Positions 411 through 11,012 are shown, counted from the first letter of the stretch. The stretch: 64,000 nucleotides of DNA from an uncultured Candidatus Poseidoniales archaeon (GCA_964645485.1 CAZXZO010000004.1:14740-78739), one strand, 5' to 3'. Made by a program: numbers and translations. The notes: generated by a model from the sequence alone, not told the origin.

Positions 411-1313
411 GTGCATGATGGTAGTCTATTGATTGCAGGCGTTGGCGGCCTTGGTTCACAGTGGGCTAAAAGAGCCCACGCCCGATGTGCAGATGAATGT
501 GATTTGCTACTAGTAGATGCAGATGAATCTTCCTTTGAGGATTCACGACACGCACATTGTTTGCCACTTGGTGATTCTTCTGATGCTGGATGTGCAGCAC
601 TTCCAGAATTAGCGGCTTCACATTACATGAAAGCCTCTGCAATAATGGAAAAAATTCTAGAACCTGTGGAATTAATGATATTACTCACATCACTTGGAGG
701 TGGAGTTGGTTCTGGTGCTGCACCGGCATTGGCTGCCCAGGCATCTCGAAAAGGGGCACTTGTAATTACGATTGCAGCGATGCCATTTGAAGAACATATA
801 GCGAGATGTGAAATTGCTGTTCCTGCATTCAATCGGCTAGAGGATTCATCTGATGTTTGTGCTCAACTTTCCTTGGACCGTTTGGCATGGCAGGCTCGTA
901 GCCGAGGAGTGGATTGGAGAATCCGTCCATCATGGGTAGAAGAGTTAGTTCAGGGATTGGTCTTGACACTTGGGCAAGTCGGGATAATCAACCTTGATTT
1001 GATGGATCTACGTTCAGTAGTTCAAAGAAAAGGAGGGGCCACGATGATTGTTGCAGAAGGCGAGGCAAATGACCCTGAGGGACTTTTCCTCAAAGCCCTC
1101 GCGGCTCCTTTAGCAGGATTGGAGGTTATCGGCGCGAGTGGTTGCCTCTTACAACTTGAAGGTGGAAGGCAAATGTCGATTTATCAAATGGAACAAGTGG
1201 CTGATGCTTTCACGCGGGGATTAACTGAAGACGCACAAGTAATTCTAGGTGCAAGGCATTCCGATGATTTAGATGGGAAGATGAGAGTAGTTGCCGTAGT
1301 AAGTGGGCTCTGA
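411..1313 (+). CDS. ftsZ: divergent FtsZ/tubulin-family GTPase (core only, no tails)
   Basis: GVGGLG N-terminal loop, signature variant GGGVGSGAAP, MPF..R motif, T7 loop GIINLDLMD, C-terminal domain ending VVAVVSGL; GTG start. Confidence 0.75.
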   Translation: MHDGSLLIAGVGGLGSQWAKRAHARCADECDLLLVDADESSFEDSRHAHCLPLGDSSDAGCAALPELAASHYMKASAIMEKILEPVELMILLTSLGGGVGSGAAPALAAQASRKGALVITIAAMPFEEHIARCEIAVPAFNRLEDSSDVCAQLSLDRLAWQARSRGVDWRIRPSWVEELVQGLVLTLGQVGIINLDLMDLRSVVQRKGGATMIVAEGEANDPEGLFLKALAAPLAGLEVIGASGCLLQLEGGRQMSIYQMEQVADAFTRGLTEDAQVILGARHSDDLDGKMRVVAVVSGL

Positions 1314-2897
1314 CTAATCCATTAAATCGACAACATCATCTGGGATTTCGAGGTCATCTAAGTCTATGACCTCTTCTTGAGAGTGTGGCTCTTTAACCTC
1401 AAGTACATCATCAAGTGCTTCCAAATCACTGGCTCCTACCGGGTTTGCTTCTGGAATTGCATCTTCATCAGGCGCTTTCAAATCACTGACTTCAACGGCG
1501 TTTGCTTCTGTAATTGCATCTTCATCAGGCGCTTTCAAATCACTGACTTCAACGGCGTTTGCTTCTGTAATTGCATCTTCATCAGGCGCTTTCAAATCAC
1601 TGACTTCACCTGCGTTCGCTTCTCGATTTGCACCATCAACCGTTTGTAATTCAGTCGCTGGAATCTCGATGTCATCCCGTTCTTCTTGCATGGCTTGAGG
1701 AGGATTTTGAACCCGATTTTTATGATTTCTTAGGGTTTTAGGATGAATCATAATTAGTGTAATTGCAGTAACTAAATGTCCAATTGCCATCGTTGTTGCA
1801 AGGTTTCCTCCTCCAACAGAATTACTGAGATTGGTAATCATTGCGATACTTCCCGCATACCCAAATCCAAATGCTAATCCCCAGAATAGCGCATTCTGAG
1901 AAGTGAAAATTTTCCCACCTCGATTTACATCACGACTTGCCAATGACCAAATAGCCAAGAGTACCGTTAAGATCATCAAAATAAATTCTTCAATAATCAT
2001 TGTGAATGCTTGTGGCTCATCAATAAGTCTCCGCCACGCACTGGCAAGATGCCAAGTGACAAACACCTGCGAAATTACACCCCATCTTGTTGCAAATCTA
2101 GCACCACCTTTTGTTGTAGATACATCAATTATTGTATCCTTCATCCAGTAAATCATCCCTACTTGGATTGTAATAGCCAGAATGATGAAACCGATCCATT
2201 TCAACTGCTCACTTGTTTCACCTTGAAATCCAGAACTAAATCCGTATCCAATCAATATTGCAACAGCCGATACAGCCGAGATTTGCCATGCCGATGTACC
2301 TATTACGGTGCCTTCTCGTTGTGTATTTTGAAGAACTTTTTTTCCGCTAGACAGCCACGCTGAAGTACCAGATTTGAATGATATCCCTTGGCCTATAGAC
2401 CAAAGCAGGAAGAGCGAAGCGAGGGATAATGGGATCCATGTAGCCCAGTTAGAGTTCCCATTGACCAACTGTAATAATCCAAAGCAAATTAGGCCACTCA
2501 ATAGTAATGGCAGAGTCCACGCTCTTAATGACCTGAGAAGCAGAGATTTGAACCAGGAATCGGCGGCCAATCCTTCAACTCTAACCATTCTAGCAGCGAA
2601 ATCCCAGCGTGTCGACATTGCAGTTAAGGAATAACCAAATGAAAGTGAAATGAATCCTATCGCTGCATACAAATTTGCCGAATCTGGTCCTTGAGCAAGT
2701 GCATAAAGTACAGTTGAGAGAATTAGAAGAAGTAGGATGTGAGGAAGAGTCTTCAAATCCATTAATGTGGCAATTAATTGCATTAATCCAAATTTTGGTT
2801 CTTCAACAATGGTGTTTTCTACTGAGAAATTGGGCGAAATTGATTCATTATCTCCGGAGATATGGCTCGAAGCAACATCCTCAACCATATCGGCCAT
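1314..2897 (-). CDS. multi-pass membrane protein with acidic repeat-containing C-terminal tail
   Basis: 527 aa, about 10-11 hydrophobic segments, then a D/E-rich tail with 19-aa repeats. Confidence 0.8.
   Translation of the reverse strand: MADMVEDVASSHISGDNESISPNFSVENTIVEEPKFGLMQLIATLMDLKTLPHILLLLILSTVLYALAQGPDSANLYAAIGFISLSFGYSLTAMSTRWDFAARMVRVEGLAADSWFKSLLLRSLRAWTLPLLLSGLICFGLLQLVNGNSNWATWIPLSLASLFLLWSIGQGISFKSGTSAWLSSGKKVLQNTQREGTVIGTSAWQISAVSAVAILIGYGFSSGFQGETSEQLKWIGFIILAITIQVGMIYWMKDTIIDVSTTKGGARFATRWGVISQVFVTWHLASAWRRLIDEPQAFTMIIEEFILMILTVLLAIWSLASRDVNRGGKIFTSQNALFWGLAFGFGYAGSIAMITNLSNSVGGGNLATTMAIGHLVTAITLIMIHPKTLRNHKNRVQNPPQAMQEERDDIEIPATELQTVDGANREANAGEVSDLKAPDEDAITEANAVEVSDLKAPDEDAITEANAVEVSDLKAPDEDAIPEANPVGASDLEALDDVLEVKEPHSQEEVIDLDDLEIPDDVVDLMD
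1444..1614. repeat. 3 tandem copies of a 57-bp coding unit (plus degenerate flanking partial copies)
   Basis: unit tttgcttctgtaattgcatcttcatcaggcgctttcaaatcactgacttcaacggcg at 1501; near-identical copies at 1444 and 1558; encodes EANAVEVSDLKAPDEDAIT on the minus strand. Confidence 0.95.
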
Positions 2898-2949: not shown

Positions 2950-3255
2950 ATGGCCAAGTTACGAAAGGCAGCCCGTCCCAAGCGCCGATGGATTGGCTTG
3001 GCAGTTGATGAGTCAATCGAAAGTAGGAGTGAATTAGAAGAAATTTTAAGTCAAATTGATGATTTGGGAGATAGATGCAAATTGTTTGACTTTATTGGTG
3101 GTCAAGCAATAATTAGAATTCCTCTAGAGTCATATAATTCGGCAAAATCAGTTCTTGAGGCCGGGTGTAAAGGATTGGTTTCAAAGACCAGTTCGGGAAA
3201 AATTCGCTTAGTACGTGAGCGTTTGGGAATCAAAGTTTCTCGCAACAAAAGATAA
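2950..3255 (+). CDS. Rpp14/Pop5-family (RNase P protein component 2-like) protein
   Basis: 101 aa; N-terminal RPKRRWIGLAV and C-terminal TSSGKIRLVRERL resemble Pop5 (REKKRYI...SGTIKK). Confidence 0.6.
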   Translation: MAKLRKAARPKRRWIGLAVDESIESRSELEEILSQIDDLGDRCKLFDFIGGQAIIRIPLESYNSAKSVLEAGCKGLVSKTSSGKIRLVRERLGIKVSRNKR

Positions 3256-3265
3256 ATTCTCATTC

Positions 3266-5842
3266 CTAATGTTTTCCAGCCCAACTATCCTCAACAGATA
3301 AGGCCTTATTCTTGAGAGGTATAATCTTTCGATAGACTTCAGAAGGAGAGCACATCTCTCCACCTACCGTTAATAATCGGGCAAGAGGGATGCCAAAATG
3401 TTCTTCGTTTTCAACTAATAACGGTTGGATAATGTCCCAATCCGCGTCAGTTAGTTCAACAAATTCGCCTCCATTCAATTGCGAGGAAGACAGCACATTG
3501 GTTGGGTCGCGAACATAAATCGCTCCGCCACTCGAGAGACTGAACAGATTTCCACCCGGATAAGGTGTATTTAGTTCAGAGATTTCCCCATTGCTTTCAA
3601 ACTTGAGTCCGTTGACTACAACGAATCCGCCTCCATCTAACGGGTCTCCAGCCATGAAGGATTCAGCAAGATAGTCCAAAGCTGTGCCATTAATGACTAG
3701 TTTTGGGCTGCCAACGGAGTTTATCATAGGTCTACCAGCAGCGTTTCCTTGAACAAATAATCTACCACCTTTTGCTCCGTATCCATAACATTGCCCAACA
3801 TCTCCATGAACAACTAAAGTTCCTGCCTTGTGAATTTGGGCTACTTGATCCTGTGCATTTCCATGCATGTGAATAGTCATTCCATCACTACCACTACCAA
3901 GGTAGTCGCCAACACTTCCGAAGACGTCGATTCTCACATCTGAGGTCTCCATACCAAATCCGTTGCCAATGAACCGGTGTCCATGACAATGTGTAACGAC
4001 AAAGTTACTCCATCCTGTATTGTACAACGCCACTAACTCTCGAGCAAGAGATTCCGTTCCTTCAATCGGATAAGGTCGTGCGTCTACAACAATTGCTTGG
4101 CCTTCGTTTTGAGGTTCAGGTAGGTGGCCAGGGGATTTTTGGCCAGAGAAATGTTCGCATGGAGTTGTCCCAGCATGATTCAAAATCCCCATTATTGCGT
4201 CTTCAACGCAATCTAACCATCGGCTTGTTCGTAGACTTCCTGTGTCATATTTTCTGTTCAATAGGAGGCATAGCAAGTCGATTGATTGTTTCCTTGAATG
4301 TTGGCTAGCATTGGAGCCTATTTCTGCAAGAAGGGCACGAGCAGCAGGCCAATCAAGGTCAGGGAAAGCAGTTACAATCTGCCCGAAGACTTCGATTGGT
4401 GTCCACTCAGTTGGCCAATCAAATCCTGAATCCATTGCTGCTGGTTCAATCTCAAAGTTGCCTTCTGGTTTTGTATCAACGATTGCACCAAATTTGTTGC
4501 TCATGATTAGTTCATGTCCGCCATTTTCATCAGGTTTTACATCAAATATGAATGAGCCTCCATCTGTGTAAGAGCCGCCTCTAGCATTCCAGTATTCGTC
4601 ACAACGGCGCCAGAATCGCTTATCTTCGGATGATAAGCTTTCTAATACTGCATCGATAACTTGCTTTTCGCTACCACAAAAAGCGATGCCGACCTCACCA
4701 CGCTGGTAAGAGAAAACTTGCGGCCTTAACATGCTGGTATCAGTTATTCCAATTAATTGATGAGTCAGGCCATCTGCTTTGGCGATTATGAAGAACCAAG
4801 GTCCATCTGGTGAGCCATGAATGTGGGTTTTTTGGATTGCTTCGTAAATCTCTTGTTTTTCGTCAGGCAGCATCACAAAATCAAGTTCGCCTGTGGGCGC
4901 TAAACTCTCTATCACATATTCCATCGGGTATCCGTATACTCGAGAATGGAGGTCAAAACCGAGTGCTGCTACTTCAGTATCTGTGAAGAAGAGCGGTTCC
5001 ATTCCTCTTTGGCCAAGATAGTCCTTGACTGAAACATAATTTGAGAAATCCCCGTTGTGTACAAGAGCAACGTCAACACCCTGTCCAAATGGGTGTGCAC
5101 CACCTGGGTGAGTTACCCTGCCTCTTGTTGGGTAGCGGTGGTGTCCAATCCAAACATGTGCTGTTACGTCATCTAGTCTATAGTACCGAATCACGTCTTC
5201 AGCATATCCGACAATCTTGAGAATAATCATATTTTGTCCATGACTTAGAACGAACGCATCTGCTCTTTGTTCCTTAGCATAAAATTCAACATTTAATTTG
5301 TGAGTATTCTGGAAGACCATTTCATCCCACATGGTTTTTTTGTTGGCGAAATCTGATTCTGTCAGATTTCCATCGGAGAGGAATTTTTCCACAGCGGCTG
5401 GTTTTGGCCTTATGAAATAACAAACAACATTTGGTGGTTGCACATCTAGATTTTCAAGTTCTTTCCAATTATCCAGAGTGGATACTTCATGAGTGTGGTC
5501 AACATCAAAATTTGAATTAATGAATTGTTCCTCAACATCTTTTCGCACTGAATCATCTAAGTAAGCAACTGCATACAAGTAATCATTTTTGAGAATCTCA
5601 GGGCTAACACCGAACTGTTCATGGTCAAGTCCAACCATTGCTACTCCGCCGCCTTTTCCGTTTCCACGGTTACGCATTTGTTCAAGTGAATTGAATAGAT
5701 GGCGTCCAGCAACTGGGATTTCACATGCCAAACCAACAACTCCACAACCTCCTTCGGCTGCATCGTCTTCATTCAACTCAAACTTTGGTAAACGGCTGTT
5801 CATTAATCGCCTTGAATCAAGAAGTGCTTCTGCATTCTTCAT
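3266..5842 (-). CDS. glutamate synthase subunit: class II glutamine amidotransferase domain fused to GXGXG (C-terminal) domain
   Basis: propeptide then CGVVG (Ntn Cys), HHRYPT, VHNGD, TDTE; C-terminal GSVGDYLG, GNAQDQ, GDVGQCYGYGAKGG, AESFMAG repeats. Confidence 0.9.
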   Translation of the reverse strand: MKNAEALLDSRRLMNSRLPKFELNEDDAAEGGCGVVGLACEIPVAGRHLFNSLEQMRNRGNGKGGGVAMVGLDHEQFGVSPEILKNDYLYAVAYLDDSVRKDVEEQFINSNFDVDHTHEVSTLDNWKELENLDVQPPNVVCYFIRPKPAAVEKFLSDGNLTESDFANKKTMWDEMVFQNTHKLNVEFYAKEQRADAFVLSHGQNMIILKIVGYAEDVIRYYRLDDVTAHVWIGHHRYPTRGRVTHPGGAHPFGQGVDVALVHNGDFSNYVSVKDYLGQRGMEPLFFTDTEVAALGFDLHSRVYGYPMEYVIESLAPTGELDFVMLPDEKQEIYEAIQKTHIHGSPDGPWFFIIAKADGLTHQLIGITDTSMLRPQVFSYQRGEVGIAFCGSEKQVIDAVLESLSSEDKRFWRRCDEYWNARGGSYTDGGSFIFDVKPDENGGHELIMSNKFGAIVDTKPEGNFEIEPAAMDSGFDWPTEWTPIEVFGQIVTAFPDLDWPAARALLAEIGSNASQHSRKQSIDLLCLLLNRKYDTGSLRTSRWLDCVEDAIMGILNHAGTTPCEHFSGQKSPGHLPEPQNEGQAIVVDARPYPIEGTESLARELVALYNTGWSNFVVTHCHGHRFIGNGFGMETSDVRIDVFGSVGDYLGSGSDGMTIHMHGNAQDQVAQIHKAGTLVVHGDVGQCYGYGAKGGRLFVQGNAAGRPMINSVGSPKLVINGTALDYLAESFMAGDPLDGGGFVVVNGLKFESNGEISELNTPYPGGNLFSLSSGGAIYVRDPTNVLSSSQLNGGEFVELTDADWDIIQPLLVENEEHFGIPLARLLTVGGEMCSPSEVYRKIIPLKNKALSVEDSWAGKH

Positions 5843-7167
5843 TCCAAATCACTCCTAGTGTAGACTAATAGGTCGGTACGACCAACCAAATCTTTGACAT
5901 CACTTAGTCCTAATTTTCGTAGGATATCTCGAAGACGCCATTGAAGAGCAGTGTAATAGTTATCTAATCTTTTTACTGCCCAATCTTGCTGTACCCATTC
6001 TTGCAATTCGATATCCGTGGTTGTCAATCCCCAAGGGCAACCTCTACCAGAAGGTCCGCCTTCACAATTTGAACAGCGAGTACAACCCATTGCAACTAAG
6101 TCACTTGTACCTAGAACAACCCCATCTGCTCCTAATGCGATGGCTTTGGCGATATCATCTGCAGTTCGGATGCCACCACTAGCAATCAAAGTTACATTCT
6201 CTCTAATTCCTTCTTTGATGAGGAATTTGTGAACTTTCGGTACTGCTAACTCAATCGGCATTGCAATATTTTTCTTGGCAATTTCTGGCGCTGCTCCAGT
6301 TCCGCCAAAGGCTCCGTCAAGGTGGATGATGTGGGCTCCAGCATAAAATGAACCAACAGCCACCATGTCAACATCGTGTGGTGTTGAAACTTTGACAGAT
6401 ATCAACGCATCAGGGTTGATTGTCTGCACCCAATCGATGTGTTTTGAGTGGTCTTCAACGGAGTAAGTTGAATGGAATGGGAATGGGCTGAAAAGGCTGA
6501 CAAATGGCACGCTGCCCCGCATCTTTGCAACCTCCTCGCCTGCTTTGGTAGCCAATAAGTGGCCGCCAAGTCCCGGTTTTGCCCCCTGGGCATATTTGAA
6601 TTCAACAATCGGGGCGGCTTGGATGGATTTTTCTTCAACACCAAATAAGCCAGTAGCAACTTGTGTAATCACGTGGTCTCTGCATTCGTACAATTCAGTG
6701 GGATAGCCACCTTCTCCAGTTGACATGTATGTATTCCAATTCTTGGCGTGGATTGCGCGCGACATCATCACATTAACCGAGACGGAACCATAAGACATCC
6801 CTCCTCCATAGATCGGGATTGCAGGGGTTAATTTCTTCCTGTGGTCACCGCGCCTATTCAGTGGAATGCTGGTTTTGATGTCTTCAGAGTGTTTGAGCCA
6901 TTTTTCTTCATCCAACATTTTGAAATCAAGTCGGTCAAATCCTCCGTTACTATCTCCGGTTTTGTAATTTAGATTTTCAGGCAGTGTTCCAGTGGCTGCC
7001 ATGTGCCAAGTGGAGAGAATCAATTCATCTGTCCAACGAGCATCTCCCAAAGCCGGTGGAATCTCAAATTCTCCAGAGGTCCGTGCTTCCATTCCATCGT
7101 GCATAAGGTGCGTAATCTTGTGTATCATCGTCTCGCTTGGGAATACTGGTAGGTTACTCTTGGCCAT
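5839..7167 (-). CDS. glutamate synthase FMN-binding subunit with 3Fe-4S motif
   Basis: MSYGSVS, STGEGG, EFKYAQGAKPGLGGHL, SVKVS, SGGIRTADDIAKAIALGAD, CTRCSNC...CPWG. Confidence 0.92.
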   Translation of the reverse strand: MAKSNLPVFPSETMIHKITHLMHDGMEARTSGEFEIPPALGDARWTDELILSTWHMAATGTLPENLNYKTGDSNGGFDRLDFKMLDEEKWLKHSEDIKTSIPLNRRGDHRKKLTPAIPIYGGGMSYGSVSVNVMMSRAIHAKNWNTYMSTGEGGYPTELYECRDHVITQVATGLFGVEEKSIQAAPIVEFKYAQGAKPGLGGHLLATKAGEEVAKMRGSVPFVSLFSPFPFHSTYSVEDHSKHIDWVQTINPDALISVKVSTPHDVDMVAVGSFYAGAHIIHLDGAFGGTGAAPEIAKKNIAMPIELAVPKVHKFLIKEGIRENVTLIASGGIRTADDIAKAIALGADGVVLGTSDLVAMGCTRCSNCEGGPSGRGCPWGLTTTDIELQEWVQQDWAVKRLDNYYTALQWRLRDILRKLGLSDVKDLVGRTDLLVYTRSDLE

Positions 7168-8678
7168 TAAATTCCACCTCCTGTGAATCCTTCAATTTCT
7201 GAAAAAGCCTCTTCCTCTAGATGGGAACACCACATTGCTCTACCCATTTCACCCCTCAATCTTCGGACTTCACGGATACCCATCGCGCCTAAGATTTCGA
7301 GCATCTGGTCTCTCCAAGACCCAGTTAAGTTGACAATTCGTTGACAAGCCCATTCATCATCGAATTTCTTGGGTAATTTTGCAGTGTATCCTTCTCTGCT
7401 TGATGTGTCTCCGCCTAATCTAGCTTGGATTGCGACGAGTAGTGGTAAGTCAAGACCAACTGCATCTAAGCCGCAGATGATTGCCTTTGGAAGATGGTCG
7501 GCAGCGATTACTCCACCGCTGTGGAGAAGTGTGACTTTATCACGTACTCCTGCTTTGATTAGCATCTCATGCGCTTCGATAATAATGTCCATGATAAATC
7601 TGCCACCATCATCTTCTCCGTGGTTATTTGCCACGAAGTGAATAACAGGAACATCAGCGGCAATCATTTCGCTGAGTTGGTCTTGCCAACCTTCTTCAAA
7701 TGCCATTCGCACTGAAATCATCAAATCCGGGTTTGAGGATACCATAGATTTGTATTCTGATGCACCCCAGTTCTCCAATTGTACCATCCTTGTGCCATTT
7801 TGGAAAGATCTCGCCGTTTCATAAGAATCAAGCGAGATGATAGGTACGACTGCAGGCGAGGCTAAATTGTTTGATGCAACCATATCTGCAGATATTAATG
7901 CCAAAGTATCAACTTGTTCGGCTGCCGTTTTCCATATTTTTGCCAAGCGAGGCGTCATGACACTTCCAGCAGGTGAATCAAATACAAATGGGACCTGAAT
8001 GCTCATCATTTTTGGTCCAGCGCTTACCAGCCCACCATCTGAATCAAATTGTAAACGCATTGGTTTTGAACCAATATCAACAACAGTGCTAATCAATTCT
8101 CTTCCATGTATCCCATCTCGGCTTGGCCGCACAATCTCAGACATGTCGGTGAACATTTCATCCCAACCAGGTCCTCCGAAACGGCCACGGTAACCTTGTC
8201 CTCTGACAGGAACTGTGCCTTTACGGGCTTCTTCATCAATTGTGGAGATTATTTTTGAATTCAAGTATGAGTCGCCCATCGATTCAAGGGCTGGATTTGG
8301 GGTGATAGTAACAAATCCGGGGTGCTCAATAGTACAACGTAAACACCCAACACATTTTTCAGGCCGAGGTGAGAATCCTCCTACAGGTCCAGAAAATACT
8401 CCGTAAGTACAGGGTCTTGCGAAAACCACATCCCACTTGCCCCAGTATTCAAAGACCTCACTAATGAGTAACTTTGCTAGTCCAAATTTTCCAACTTTGA
8501 CAAGGAATCTGTTGGGGAGAGATTGCCGGTCAGGTATTTCGATTGTATCAATGTGATAGCGATGATAACTATCCGCGCGGGTTCTAGATTGCGAAGCGAA
8601 TTCTGCCATCGTCAGTCTAGATTTTTCACTTGCTCCAATCATCGTTTGGTCTTCCTCCACTTTGTTCAGCAGTTGCAT
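7167..8678 (-). CDS. glutamate synthase-related protein: ferredoxin-like N-terminus plus degenerate FMN-type barrel
   Basis: CTYGV..CVGCLRC; GQGYRGRFGGPGWD; SGGVIAADHLPKAIICGLDAV; lacks MSYG, QGAKPG and CPxG; first gene of an operon with coupled stop/start junctions. Confidence 0.8.
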   Translation of the reverse strand: MQLLNKVEEDQTMIGASEKSRLTMAEFASQSRTRADSYHRYHIDTIEIPDRQSLPNRFLVKVGKFGLAKLLISEVFEYWGKWDVVFARPCTYGVFSGPVGGFSPRPEKCVGCLRCTIEHPGFVTITPNPALESMGDSYLNSKIISTIDEEARKGTVPVRGQGYRGRFGGPGWDEMFTDMSEIVRPSRDGIHGRELISTVVDIGSKPMRLQFDSDGGLVSAGPKMMSIQVPFVFDSPAGSVMTPRLAKIWKTAAEQVDTLALISADMVASNNLASPAVVPIISLDSYETARSFQNGTRMVQLENWGASEYKSMVSSNPDLMISVRMAFEEGWQDQLSEMIAADVPVIHFVANNHGEDDGGRFIMDIIIEAHEMLIKAGVRDKVTLLHSGGVIAADHLPKAIICGLDAVGLDLPLLVAIQARLGGDTSSREGYTAKLPKKFDDEWACQRIVNLTGSWRDQMLEILGAMGIREVRRLRGEMGRAMWCSHLEEEAFSEIEGFTGGGI

Positions 8679-8799: not shown

Positions 8800-9011
8800 A
8801 TGTTCAGTTTCCACGAAAGTAGTAATAACATTCACGCAATCAAGCGGTAACTAGATTTTGGCTATTACTTCGCATCTGATTGCAAATATTACAGCATCTT
8901 TTTGTGTCCCAGAGTTGATTCTTAATCAAGCAGGTTCTTCTAATAAACGGTCAATTATTCTTCAAACTATTCAAGGGCGATGTTCATGATGCATTGGCTG
9001 TTCGCCCATCC

Positions 9012-9545
9012 ATGGCAGGAGGGGGAGTGGGTGCAAAAGTAACCCCGCATGATATCTCAATTATAGTCGGAGCAATCGGCTTAGTCGGTGCTTTAGCAAT
9101 CTCTATGTTTGCTCTTCCAATGATGGTCGAATTTGGTGAGGTATCATCTACTCAAGAAGTGCGTTCAATTTCTGTTGGAGTTCTTGGTTCTAAAGATAAT
9201 ATTGTGGTCGAAGCATCCCCGATTTGTGAAAACAATAACACCTGTGCAATAAATAATATCAAGGTAATGAGCGAAGATGGCGCTGAATTAGCAAGGGTTT
9301 CAGATTTTGAATTCAACGAAGACGGTTCATTCTCAAGTTCAATAGATGTCGATTCAAGTGGGAAACTCACGGTAGAAATTAACGGCCAGGGGACTTGGGA
9401 GGTAGAAGTGAAAGCACAACGCCAAATCCCAATTCAATTTCTCCCCACGATATTGTCTCTTCTTCTTCTAGTCTGGGGTGTTTGGCGAAAATTTCAGGAA
9501 GGTCCAGCAGATTCAGACATTGATGAAGTCGTCGAAACAGCTTGA
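9012..9545 (+). CDS. hypothetical membrane protein (N- and C-terminal TM helices)
   Basis: hydrophobic IIVGAIGLVGALAISMFAL and ILSLLLLVWGVW; ATG 9012 preferred over TTG 8994. Confidence 0.7.
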   Translation: MAGGGVGAKVTPHDISIIVGAIGLVGALAISMFALPMMVEFGEVSSTQEVRSISVGVLGSKDNIVVEASPICENNNTCAINNIKVMSEDGAELARVSDFEFNEDGSFSSSIDVDSSGKLTVEINGQGTWEVEVKAQRQIPIQFLPTILSLLLLVWGVWRKFQEGPADSDIDEVVETA

Positions 9546-9548
9546 TTT

Positions 9549-11012
9549 TCAGACCCAATCAATATTGTAACTATCTGAAATTATGTGCTTTTGTGTTCCG
9601 TCAGAGCAAATTAATTCTCCTTTTTGATTGATGTTTGTGACTGCCATCTTGCCTGCACCCTGTCTAAGGGTTAATCCAGATTTTAGGTGATTGGACATTA
9701 ATGACCAAATCACATTTTTTTGTCTCCATTGTTTAGGGATCAATTCCCCTGTTTCAAATTGTGAAGCTACGGAGGTGTCTAGTAAGTTTGTGAAGTCGTC
9801 TAGGTTTATGTGACCAGTTAATTCTTTTAGGCTGCTTGAGAGGTATTCTTTGTTAGAAGTTGCACCAAGATTTACTCCGATACCCAGGATTACTTTCTGT
9901 TCTTTGCCTGTTTGACGTCCTTCCACTAAGCAACCCGCAAGTTTTCCTGAATTAGTCCAGATGTCATTTGGCCAACGAATTGATAGATTGTGTTTTGCAA
10001 AAGGTTTGCATTGCGTCCAATGTGTGGAAACTAAGGGGATTTCTTGGCAAGCACATATTGCATCGATGACTGCAACTCCCGCTGCAAGTTGAATCAGTCC
10101 GGGCCCTTCATCAATCAATTTCGGATCAAGTACCCAACTACCAGCAAAATCACCAGCAGCAGTATCCCATACTCTTTTTCGTTGACCTCTGCCAACCTGT
10201 TGTTGCTTGGCTGTGACGAGGCTTCCAACTGGGAATTCCTCATCTAGGAGGTATTGGTTTGTGGAATCGATAACATCGTGAGAAACCCTAGTTGCCTTTT
10301 CGTGTGGCTTCCATGCTGCAAAACAGGTCAATCTTTCGCCGTCAACTAATTGAAGTTCAGAAGAAATTCTCGTTGCCCATCCAGCCGCTCTCCAACGACT
10401 CTGTAATGAGTTTCCACGTTCATTATTAGTGTGTAAAAGATAAACTGCGCCCCCTTGGTTCAGGAGATTATTTTCTCTGGTTAGGGTTTGCAAAAGTGCC
10501 ACCCCCCAACCGCTATTTTTTGGAGTGTCAACTAGGCCTGCATCTTCGAAAGGACCTAACCTATCGTCGTCACCACTAATTGGTGAGAGGTATGGTAGGT
10601 TCCAGGTTATAATGTCAAACGGACCCTGAGATTCTACAATTTTCTGGTTGACGAAATTGGAATCTTCATCCAAGCCAGCCTCTACTGCTTTCAGGGTGAC
10701 ATTGTTGTGACTTGCGTTGCCAGTTGTTGTAGCGATTGCAAGTGGGTTTACATCACAGGATGTAACCTGCCAACCTAGTTTTGCCGCGGCAATTGAAATG
10801 GCTCCACTACCACAACCAATTTCAAGGAGTTTTCTTCCCTTTCCTGCACCTAATTTTGATAGGCTGGAGAACAAAAGCGCAGTGTCTTCACGGGGGGGAT
10901 AAACAGTCGCCGGCACGCGGAGGGAAAGCCCCTCCTTTTCATGGTAAATCCATTCGTGAAGTAGTGCACTCTCACTCTGCATTGCGAGCTCACGTTTGGT
11001 ATGGTCATTCAC
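9549..11012 (-). CDS. fusion of HemK2/PrmC-type SAM methyltransferase and biotin-protein ligase (BPL)
   Basis: VYPPREDT, LEIGCGSG, WNLPYL (NPPY variant); then IDSTN, QQVGRGQRKRVW, RWPND, KLAGCLVE, LGIGVNL and an SH3-like C-terminus. Confidence 0.88.
   Translation of the reverse strand: MNDHTKRELAMQSESALLHEWIYHEKEGLSLRVPATVYPPREDTALLFSSLSKLGAGKGRKLLEIGCGSGAISIAAAKLGWQVTSCDVNPLAIATTTGNASHNNVTLKAVEAGLDEDSNFVNQKIVESQGPFDIITWNLPYLSPISGDDDRLGPFEDAGLVDTPKNSGWGVALLQTLTRENNLLNQGGAVYLLHTNNERGNSLQSRWRAAGWATRISSELQLVDGERLTCFAAWKPHEKATRVSHDVIDSTNQYLLDEEFPVGSLVTAKQQQVGRGQRKRVWDTAAGDFAGSWVLDPKLIDEGPGLIQLAAGVAVIDAICACQEIPLVSTHWTQCKPFAKHNLSIRWPNDIWTNSGKLAGCLVEGRQTGKEQKVILGIGVNLGATSNKEYLSSSLKELTGHINLDDFTNLLDTSVASQFETGELIPKQWRQKNVIWSLMSNHLKSGLTLRQGAGKMAVTNINQKGELICSDGTQKHIISDSYNIDWV

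What the first reader, a model, noticed from the sequence alone, without database searches (positions are those of the whole stretch)
3266..8678. Three-piece, re-shuffled glutamate synthase in which a ferredoxin-fused dead barrel may replace the central domain
Seen: three translationally coupled genes. (1) Fe-S domain plus an FMN-type barrel lacking MSYG, QGAKPG and CPxG. (2) A complete FMN/3Fe-4S barrel. (3) A GATase domain fused directly to the GXGXG domain. No gltD is adjacent. Established: bacterial GltB has the order GATase, central domain, FMN domain, GXGXG domain, and its central domain is a cofactor-free barrel related to the FMN domain. Inference: gene 1 supplies the central-domain equivalent plus an electron-entry Fe-S module, giving a split, permuted GOGAT that does not need GltD. 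A related amidotransferase, such as an N-methylglutamate-synthase-like enzyme, is an alternative.
Basis: partly seen in the sequence, partly recalled or inferred. Interest (0 to 1): 0.55.

Follow-up and report, generated by a model that had tools for sequence, protein, structure and literature searches.

The report
Three-gene glutamate synthase with dead barrel
This operon of an abundant ocean archaeon (Marine Group II) encodes an unstudied three-protein form of glutamate synthase, in which a catalytically dead, iron-sulfur-bearing copy of the flavin subunit partners the live one; oddly, it occurs only in genomes that lack glutamine synthetase.

Summary
Three translationally coupled minus-strand genes encode:
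- g1 (503 aa): one four-Cys cluster plus a full TIM barrel stripped of the catalytic motifs.
- g2 (442 aa): a complete FMN barrel with a four-Cys cluster.
- g3 (858 aa): an Ntn amidotransferase fused to the GXGXG beta-helix.

- g1 is an ancient, degenerate paralogue of the ferredoxin-fused FMN subunit. It is not a recognisable central domain.
- g1 is fused to g2 in other lineages, and the g1+g2 complex model supports binding (0.87 against 0.02 for the best control).
- The g3 model overlays the GATase and beta-helix domains of solved GltS together (Z 27, 572 residues).
- No GltD-type domain was found in 31 family genomes.

The cassette is not unique to this archaeon. It occurs across Thermoplasmatota, Asgard archaea, Chloroflexota, Acidobacteriota and Acetothermia, sometimes joined to FAD-oxidase/Fe-S or ETF modules. 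This scan has flagged it before on other DNA. I found no paper describing it.

Among 61 Poseidoniales genomes, 20 carry the cassette, 40 carry a type II glutamine synthetase, and none carries both. That pattern is unexplained.

Most likely this is a ferredoxin-driven glutamate synthase: a new variant of a known kind, of moderate interest.

The parts
7167..8678 (-). g1: 503-aa non-catalytic paralogue of the FMN subunit (half-ferredoxin remnant, pre-barrel segment, TIM barrel)
   Evidence: The AlphaFold model has pLDDT 78. hhalign to g2 gives probability 100%, E 3e-39 over 331 columns.
8334..8411 (-). g1 four-Cys site (C90, C109, C112, C115), probably one [4Fe-4S] cluster
   Evidence: These Cys are present in 61-62 of 63 family members. 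They align with Cys 4 of motif 1 and Cys 1-3 of motif 2 of the 2x[4Fe-4S] ferredoxin domain kept by the G184 relative. They lie in the predicted interface with g2. Coordinates checked.
8094..8213 (-). g1 invariant segment VPVRGQGYRGRFGGPGWDEMFTDMSEIVRPSRDGIHGREL (residues 156-195)
   Evidence: This is the most conserved stretch of the family. It is disordered in the monomer model (pLDDT about 40). Residues 156-181 touch g2 loops 192-200 and 286-311 in the complex model.
5839..7167 (-). g2: 442-aa catalytic FMN barrel of glutamate synthase type
   Evidence: PF01645 at 1.2e-87. MSYGS, GEGG, QGAKPG, GGTGAAP and SGGxRT are invariant in 12 relatives. hhalign to the bacterial-type FMN domain gives E 2e-48.
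6037..6084 (-). g2 cluster motif C362-x2-C365-x2-C368-x8-C377(P)
   Evidence: All four Cys are invariant. They align with the Fe-S cysteines of bacterial-type GltB. They lie in the predicted interface with g1.
3266..5842 (-). g3: 858-aa fusion of Ntn glutamine amidotransferase, helical linker and GXGXG beta-helix
   Evidence: The model (pLDDT 80, pTM 0.84) aligns to Synechocystis Fd-GltS 1OFD with Z 27.1, rmsd 3.4 A and 572 residues, model 33-844 onto chain 1-1498.
5747..5842 (-). g3 32-residue leader ahead of catalytic Cys33 (probable propeptide)
   Evidence: E30-G31-G32-C33-G34-V35 are invariant in 24 homologues. Cys33 aligns to residue 1 of processed GltS, PurF and GlmS chains. Cleavage itself is inferred.
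4178..4399 (-). g3 helical linker (residues 482-555) in the place where canonical GltB carries the central and FMN domains
   Evidence: Four helices, with pLDDT mostly 83-94 (block means). No Pfam hit.

Best explanation
The three genes most likely encode a GltD-independent glutamate synthase made of three proteins, probably driven by ferredoxin.

- g3: after removal of a 32-residue leader, g3 hydrolyses glutamine at Cys33. Its fused beta-helix holds the amidotransferase in the same arrangement as in canonical GltS.
- g2: binds FMN and a four-Cys cluster, and reductively aminates 2-oxoglutarate with the channelled ammonia.
- g1: a catalytically dead, ancient paralogue of the ferredoxin-fused FMN subunit. 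It docks on g2 and places its one surviving [4Fe-4S] site at the interface, where g2's cluster loop also lies, so it can pass electrons from an external low-potential donor. Its invariant loop packs against g2's active-site loops.

g1 therefore combines a scaffold role (like the central domain) with an electron-wire role (like the Fe-S domain of GltD).

Shown here: the domain content, the motif losses and retentions, the fusions, and the fold matches. Inferred: enzyme activity, the electron donor, cofactor content, propeptide cleavage and the geometry of the assembly.
For: Domains and motifs:
- Domain and motif content.
- GATase catalytic residues C33, R236, N263-G264 and D288 are invariant in 24 homologues from archaea and bacteria.
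- In g2, the lysine of QGAKPG and the arginine 20 residues after it are invariant.

Structure models:
- The g3 model superposes on whole GltS alpha chains over 566-582 residues. This is far more than on any single-domain match, which reach at most 241 residues.
- g1+g2 complex model: score 0.87, best of 3 controls 0.02. This mark was reached by 58 of 80 solved complexes and 2 of 110 mismatched pairs. These counts hold only roughly, because my own alignments were used. The runs agree in at least 90% of contacts, and the partner's pLDDT is at least 84.
- The predicted interface contains g1 89-92 and 108-127 (the Cys site) and g2 363-379 (its Cys site).

Gene fusions:
- g1-g2 fusions of about 840 aa in Thermoplasmatota and Promethearchaeota.
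- Fusions of about 990 aa with a ferredoxin ahead of each barrel.
- A 2508-aa chain carrying FAD-oxidase, Fe-S, g1, g2 and GATase.

Distribution and genome content:
- The same gene order occurs in Thermoanaerobaculia and Acetothermia.
- g1 and g3 co-occur in all 8 family genomes with g1, and both are missing from the 6 without it.
- These are the only PF01645 genes in the genome.
- No GltD-type domain was found in 31 family genomes.
- Two 2-oxoacid:ferredoxin oxidoreductase genes are present as possible sources of reduced ferredoxin.
- Cassette-bearing Thermoplasmatota outside the class do have glutamine synthetase.
Against: - No activity, cofactor or expression data exist for any member, and I found no paper on this architecture.
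- In Poseidoniales the cassette never co-occurs with glutamine synthetase: 0 of 61 genomes have both. A normal GS-GOGAT cycle is therefore impossible there, and the source of glutamine is unknown.
- g2 departs from canonical GltS near the active site: GLGGHLL replaces GEGGQLP. Substrate identity is therefore not certain.
- One Thermoplasmatota genome (G184) carries this cassette as well as a classical split GOGAT. This hints that the two are not simply redundant.
- g1 keeps the beta7 SGG(V/I) phosphate-binding motif, so it may still bind a ligand.
- The complex model is a prediction. It could in part echo barrel-barrel contacts of solved GltS structures.
Confidence: 0.6

Rival explanations
1. 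g1 is not a dead scaffold. It is a working electron-input flavoprotein: its barrel still binds FMN or another phosphorylated cofactor and, with the Fe-S site, plays the role that GltD's flavin plays in NADPH-GltS.
For: The beta7 and beta8 strands and the SGG(V/I) phosphate-binding motif are kept, with G388, G389, K398 and D405 invariant or nearly so. The fold is a complete FMN/IMPDH-type barrel with Z about 21. More basal family members hold three Cys clusters in g1.
Against: The beta1 MSYG, beta2 GEGG and beta3 motifs are gone. The whole beta4/loop-4 segment is also gone. In place of GGTGAAP g1 has a divergent 'HG...' segment. No NAD(P)H-binding domain is present. The most conserved part of g1 is the pre-barrel loop, not the barrel pocket.
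Confidence: 0.17
2. The enzyme is a glutamate-synthase relative that acts on another amide donor or another 2-oxo acid or amine acceptor. An N-methylglutamate-synthase-like reaction is one such possibility. It would then not be a true glutamine:2-oxoglutarate amidotransferase.
For: g2 has GLGGHLL where GltS has GEGGQLP. g3 matches only GATase_6, and weakly, rather than the GltS-type GATase_2. The cassette occurs without glutamine synthetase in MGII/III and beside a classical GOGAT in G184.
Against: The glutamine-binding R236 and D288 and the N263-G264 oxyanion pair are invariant. So are the g2 lysine and arginine that align with the QGAKPG lysine and the arginine 20 residues after it in the bacterial-type GltB FMN domain; from memory these are K972 and R992 of GltS. 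NMGS needs no Fe-S electron path, and by recollection its genes sit with gmaS and mgd genes. No GS/GmaS-family gene exists in these genomes.
Confidence: 0.13
3. In the GS-less Poseidoniales the enzyme stands in for glutamine synthetase. It would run oxidatively, converting 2 glutamate to glutamine plus 2-oxoglutarate, and so make glutamine without ATP.
For: Strict either/or distribution with GlnII in 61 genomes, including switches inside two genera. All relatives keep GDH to make glutamate.
Against: Outside the class the cassette co-occurs with ordinary GS. From my own knowledge: reversal of an Ntn amidotransferase requires forming a thioester from free glutamate, and net glutamine synthesis has not, to my recollection, been reported for any GltS. 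Import of glutamine is a simpler explanation.
Confidence: 0.05

Closest known systems
Bacterial and plant glutamate synthase alpha subunit (GltB/GlsF; PDB 1EA0, 1OFD, 6S6S, 7MFM), with or without GltD
   Same: It has the same four catalytic and structural modules: Ntn GATase, FMN barrel with an Fe-S site, and GXGXG beta-helix. The g3 model overlays the GATase and beta-helix of 1OFD together (Z 27.1, 572 residues). g2 aligns to the bacterial-type FMN domain at E 2e-48.
   Different: It is three chains in the order pseudo-barrel, FMN barrel, GATase-GXGXG, instead of one chain in the order GATase-central-FMN-GXGXG. There is no recognisable central domain; a complete but degenerate barrel with its own Fe-S site is present instead. 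g2 has a four-Cys motif instead of the three-Cys 3Fe-4S motif. There is no GltD. In MGII there is no GS partner.
Classical archaeal split glutamate synthase (separate GATase, ferredoxin-FMN and GXGXG genes). The Methanocaldococcus-type example is from memory; an instance was seen here in genome G184 (L049).
   Same: It is split into separate genes and has a ferredoxin-type Fe-S entry on a barrel subunit. No GltD was seen in that operon.
   Different: The classical set has three proteins in the order GATase, Fd-FMN, GXGXG, with no second barrel. Here GATase and GXGXG are fused. In the MGII form the catalytic barrel has lost its ferredoxin domain, and the Fe-S entry sits on an extra dead paralogue. 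G184 carries both systems.
Central domain of GltS (Pfam PF04898), described by SCOP's authors as a duplicated FMN barrel that lost three beta/alpha units (PMC5011417)
   Same: Both are cofactor-motif-free duplicates of the FMN barrel placed immediately before the catalytic barrel. This holds for gene order here and for the fusion order in other lineages. In a tree, both fall outside the clade of catalytic barrels.
   Different: g1 is a complete barrel of about 300 residues with a ferredoxin remnant. It gives no PF04898 hit. By hhalign the central domain is barely closer to g1 (1.2e-7) than to diverse g2 (5e-6). Common descent is unresolved.
N-methylglutamate synthase MgsABC
   Same: It also uses GATase-like, GXGXG and FMN-barrel modules as separate proteins (from memory).
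   Different: Here Fe-S sites are present on both barrel subunits, the catalytic Cys and glutamine-binding residues are intact, and no gmaS-type GS homologue exists anywhere in the genome.

Membership tests
Glutamate synthase (GltS/GOGAT) superfamily | Class II (Ntn) amidotransferase with N-terminal catalytic Cys and glutamine-binding Arg, Asn-Gly and Asp | tested here: met
   C33, R236, N263-G264 and D288 are invariant in 24 homologues. Cys33 aligns to residue 1 of GltS, PurF and GlmS chains. A 32-residue leader must be removed; that step is inferred.
Glutamate synthase (GltS/GOGAT) superfamily | FMN-binding barrel with the Glu_synthase motifs | tested here: met
   g2 matches PF01645 at 1.2e-87. 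MSYGS, GEGG, QGAKPG, GGTGAAP and SGGxRT are invariant.
Glutamate synthase (GltS/GOGAT) superfamily | Fe-S cluster ligands after beta8 of the FMN barrel | tested here: met
   C362, C365, C368 and C377 are invariant and align with the GltB cluster cysteines. There are four Cys rather than three.
Glutamate synthase (GltS/GOGAT) superfamily | C-terminal GXGXG beta-helix packed on the amidotransferase | tested here: met
   PF01493 at 7.8e-11. The model overlays both domains of 1OFD at once.
Glutamate synthase (GltS/GOGAT) superfamily | Glutamine- and 2-oxoglutarate-dependent glutamate formation | not testable with these tools
   No biochemical data exist. No paper was found.
Canonical bacterial GltB architecture | Single chain ordered GATase-central-FMN-GXGXG with a PF04898 central domain | tested here: not met
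   There are three chains in a different order. No PF04898 match was found in g1, or anywhere in the genome at E 1e-10.
NADPH-GltS (GltBD) | GltD small subunit (Fer4_20 plus pyridine-nucleotide reductase) | tested here: not met
   PF14691 was not found in the genome (82% complete) or in 31 family genomes.
Classical archaeal split GltS | Separate GATase, Fd-FMN and GXGXG proteins, with one barrel only | tested here: not met
   GATase and GXGXG are fused, g2 lacks a ferredoxin domain, and an extra barrel subunit is present.
N-methylglutamate synthase | Association with gmaS (a GS homologue) and NMG dehydrogenase genes; no redox input needed | tested here: not met
   There is no PF00120 gene in the genome or in cassette-bearing relatives. 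Fe-S sites are present on g1 and g2. NMG dehydrogenase genes were not searched for. The definition of this family is from memory.
GS-GOGAT cycle | Co-occurrence with glutamine synthetase in the same genome | tested here: not met
   0 of 20 cassette-bearing Poseidoniales genomes have a PF00120 match, while 40 of 41 genomes without the cassette do. The feature is met in G184, G121 and G146 outside the class.

The most novel reading that the evidence does not exclude
In Marine Group II/III archaea this enzyme and glutamine synthetase are strict alternatives. The cassette may therefore take over GS's job, making glutamine from glutamate by running the synthase oxidatively (2 Glu -> Gln + 2-oxoglutarate + 2 e-), with channelled ammonia and no ATP. 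A milder novel reading, which I put at about 0.3, is that g1 is the undecayed, still separate counterpart of the bacterial central domain, so the operon preserves a pre-fusion stage of GltB evolution.
Probability: 0.05. Interest if true: 0.9.

Novelty: new variant of a known kind. Interest (0 to 1): 0.55.

Why it matters
Glutamate synthase is a central enzyme of nitrogen assimilation, and its known forms are NAD(P)H-dependent GltBD, ferredoxin-dependent GltS and the archaeal split type.

This cassette is a fourth, widespread and apparently unstudied architecture. A pseudo-enzyme paralogue supplies the Fe-S entry and probably part of the scaffold. In other lineages the same core is joined to FAD-oxidase/Fe-S or ETF modules, so the core appears able to take electrons from several different donors.

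Marine Group II archaea are among the most abundant archaea of the surface ocean. In them the cassette is the only glutamate synthase, and it occurs only where glutamine synthetase is missing. This bears directly on how these uncultured heterotrophs handle nitrogen, and it separates lineages, even within a genus, into two nitrogen strategies.

The cassette also offers a natural comparison for how the GltB central domain arose.

Tried and rejected
- **Literature.** Seven full-text searches found no description of this architecture. They gave only the SCOP remark on the central domain and a note that some MGII carry a type II GS.
- **Is g1 specifically akin to the central domain?** The first hhalign looked favourable: 1e-7 for g1, against 1.8e-5 for g2 and 8e-4 for the bacterial FMN domain. 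The gap shrank once alignment diversity was matched: 1.2e-7 against 5e-6, and MGII-only g1 gave only 4.7e-3. I do not claim a special affinity.
- **Is g1 a recent copy of g2?** Rejected. The tree puts g1 outside all catalytic barrels. Its pre-barrel segment also resembles the classical archaeal subunit more than it resembles g2.
- **Sequence search of g1 against solved structures.** It gave only weak FMN-oxidase and GltS FMN-domain matches.
- **Synteny.** Neither the cassette locus of a family relative nor a GS locus shares other genes with the first 20 kb of this window. There is therefore no conserved neighbouring donor gene and no shared insertion site.
- **Donor modules in this genome.** FAD_binding_4, the donor module fused or adjacent in other lineages, was not found in this genome, which is 82% complete.
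- **GDH.** It was not found in this MAG, but it is present in all 60 relatives, so I attribute the miss to incompleteness.


Full report
**What is there.** The window comes from a Poseidoniales (Marine Group II) genome bin. Homologues of g1 are named Thalassarchaeaceae, and archaeal RpoH and an unsplit RpoB lie nearby. Three minus-strand ORFs fill 3266-8678: g1 at 7167-8678 (503 aa), g2 at 5839-7167 (442 aa) and g3 at 3266-5842 (858 aa). The junctions read TAATG and ATGA, each preceded by a GGAGG-like run.

**The three proteins.**
- g2 is an ordinary catalytic FMN barrel of glutamate synthase (PF01645, 1.2e-87). MSYGS, GEGG, QGAKPG, GGTGAAP and SGGxRT are invariant in 12 relatives.
- g2's cluster motif has four invariant cysteines (C362-x2-C365-x2-C368-x8-C377-P). 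They align with the Fe-S cysteines of bacterial-type GltB.
- g3 carries a weak GATase_6 match and a GXGXG match. In 24 homologues from archaea and bacteria, C33, R236, N263-G264 and D288 are invariant, as is E30-G31-G32 just before the cysteine.
- The AlphaFold model of g3 (pLDDT 80, pTM 0.84) aligns to whole GltS alpha chains: 1OFD with Z 27.1, rmsd 3.4 A and 572 residues, model 33-844 onto chain 1-1498. Single-domain matches (PurF, GlmS, FwdC) reach only 200-240 residues. The two domains of g3 therefore sit together as they do in GltS.
- Cys33 falls on residue 1 of the processed enzymes, which implies that a 32-residue leader is removed. A four-helix linker (482-555) stands where GltB has its central and FMN domains.

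**g1 is a degenerate barrel.**
- Its only Pfam hit is the C-terminal third of Glu_synthase.
- A profile-profile alignment to g2 covers 331 columns at E 3e-39, or 4e-46 against a more diverse g2 set.
- That alignment shows g1 has lost MSYG, GEGG and the beta3 motif. It has also lost the whole segment from QGAKPG to SPxPxH, GGTGAAP, and the barrel cysteines.
- g1 keeps beta7/beta8 (SGGV...KAIICGLDAVGLD) and the C-terminal helices.
- The model (pLDDT 78) is a complete FMN/IMPDH-type barrel. Its longest alignment is to the FMN domain of GltS (781-1193 of 1EA0, 304 residues, Z 21), not to the central domain.

**g1's Fe-S site.** The N-terminal cysteines are C90, C109, C112 and C115. Compared with a relative that keeps a full 2x[4Fe-4S] ferredoxin domain, these are exactly Cys 4 of motif 1 and Cys 1-3 of motif 2. 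They are the ligands of one of the two clusters. They are present in 61-62 of 63 family members. More basal members have eight N-terminal Cys plus four barrel Cys. The MGII form has therefore shed two of three clusters.

**g1's invariant segment.** The most conserved part of g1 is residues 156-195 (VPVRGQGYRGRFGGPGWDEMFTDMSEIVRPSRDGIHGREL). In the monomer model this segment is disordered, with pLDDT about 40.

**Do the three act together?** Several lines of evidence say yes.
- g1 and g2 are one polypeptide in Thermoplasmatota genomes G077 and G146 and in Promethearchaeota (about 840-850 aa). They are also fused in proteins of about 990 aa that carry a ferredoxin ahead of each barrel.
- A partial 2508-aa bacterial protein runs FAD-oxidase, Fe-S, g1, g2, GATase.
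- The same three-gene order occurs in Thermoanaerobaculia and Acetothermia.
- In the family, g1 and g3 are both present or both absent.
- The g1+g2 complex model supports binding but does not show it. The score was 0.87, with 0.02 for the best of 3 controls. That mark was reached by 58 of 80 solved complexes and 2 of 110 mismatched pairs. These counts hold only roughly here, since my own alignments were used. The runs agree in at least 90% of contacts, and the partner's pLDDT is at least 84.
- In that model, g1's Cys site (89-92, 108-127), its invariant loop (156-181) and its C-terminal tail all lie in the interface.
- On the g2 side the interface holds the N-terminus, the QGAKPG loop (192-200), the GGTGAAP loop (286-311) and g2's own Cys site (363-379).

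**Electron supply.**
- No GltD-type Fer4_20 domain was found in the genome or in 31 family genomes.
- No FAD_binding_4 gene was found in this genome.
- Two 2-oxoacid:ferredoxin oxidoreductase genes are present. Ferredoxin is therefore the likely donor; this is inference.
- Elsewhere the same core sits with a GlcD-like FAD oxidase plus Fe-S module. That module is adjacent in G184 and G121 and fused in Chloroflexota. In G146 the core sits with ETF alpha/beta genes instead.

**Relation to the central domain.**
- SCOP's authors describe the central domain as a duplicated FMN barrel that lost three beta/alpha units (PMC5011417).
- g1 is likewise a motif-free duplicate placed just before the catalytic barrel, but it is complete and carries Fe-S.
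- An hhalign comparison at first favoured g1 as the central domain's nearest profile. With alignment diversity matched, the margin is small: 1.2e-7 against 5e-6 for g2.
- A FastTree of 69 barrels (357 columns) groups all catalytic barrels (g2, classical archaeal, bacterial) with support 0.989. Both g1 and the central domains fall outside that group. This fits a single old duplication, but it is also the artefact expected for two fast-evolving, motif-less groups.
- I therefore call g1 a functional analogue of the central domain and leave common descent open.

**Distribution.**
- The g1 family has 167 clusters (at 50% identity) below E 1e-30.
- g3-type fusions number in the thousands and are named only 'glutamate synthase' or 'domain-containing protein 1/3'.
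- Within Thermoplasmatota the cassette is patchy.
- G184 holds both this cassette and a classical split GOGAT ordered GATase, Fd-FMN, GXGXG.
- This scan has flagged the same cassette on other genomes several times, and fused relatives too. Those notes are leads, not evidence.

**The unexpected pattern.**
- This genome has no PF00120 gene.
- In one sample of 61 Poseidoniales genomes, 20 carry the cassette and 40 carry a 335-aa type II glutamine synthetase (NF041605, 3.8e-108). None has both, and one (83% complete) has neither.
- The alternation recurs inside two genera.
- All 60 relatives have GDH.
- Two class relatives outside the order (family f3) also have the cassette without GS. More distant carriers (G184, G121, G146) do have GS.
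- Related genomes are not independent, so I give no statistic. The pattern still means the enzyme cannot be half of a GS-GOGAT cycle in these archaea.
- The simplest reading is that cassette-bearing lineages take glutamine from outside and use the enzyme to spread its amide nitrogen. Why the two genes exclude each other is unexplained.

**Verdict.** The locus is most likely a ferredoxin-type, GltD-independent glutamate synthase with a pseudo-enzyme Fe-S subunit. It is a new variant of a known kind, widespread, and apparently uncharacterised.

Noticed in passing
whole genome and 60 Poseidoniales relatives; GS example at L047:9458-10465 (-): The cassette and a type II glutamine synthetase (GlnII, 335 aa) are mutually exclusive in 61 genomes: 20 with the cassette, 40 with GS, none with both. 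Switches occur inside two genera. The GS gene sits with D-amino-acid-oxidase-like, NUDIX and MFS genes. Three of these genes (GS, oxidase, NUDIX) match an inserted block reported for one MGII cluster in PMC6741140.
   Followed up: partly
L049 (G184:C4:77000-91000) versus L015 (G184:C11:104000-120000): One Thermoplasmatota genome carries both a classical split GOGAT (GATase 408 aa, Fd-FMN 509 aa, GXGXG) and the g1-g2-g3 cassette preceded by a GlcD-like FAD oxidase/Fe-S gene. This suggests that the two enzymes differ in donor or role.
   Followed up: partly
L016:3123-5113 (-); L015:5001-6959 (+); P0273; P0254: In other lineages different electron-input modules are attached to the same core. These are ETF beta plus ferredoxin-ETF alpha genes, a FAD_binding_4/FAD-oxidase_C/4Fe-4S protein, or that oxidase fused to g1 (about 1200 aa). 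There is also a mega-fusion of at least 2508 aa.
   Followed up: partly
window 1314-2897 (-) and 2950-3255 (+), 8994-9545 (+): The ORFs flanking the operon (527, 101 and 183 aa) have no Pfam match. They are not conserved beside the cassette in a family relative.
   Followed up: no
g3 homologues P0358-P0361 versus L015, L016, L018: MGII g3 is 56-58% identical to some bacterial (Thermoanaerobaculia) or unassigned proteins but only 47-50% identical to other Thermoplasmatota copies. Together with the patchy distribution, this hints at horizontal transfer of the whole cassette.
   Followed up: no
window 411-1313 (+) and 9549-11012 (-): A short FtsZ-family gene and a methyltransferase-biotin ligase fusion flank the region. 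Both were already noted by other readers of this window.
   Followed up: no
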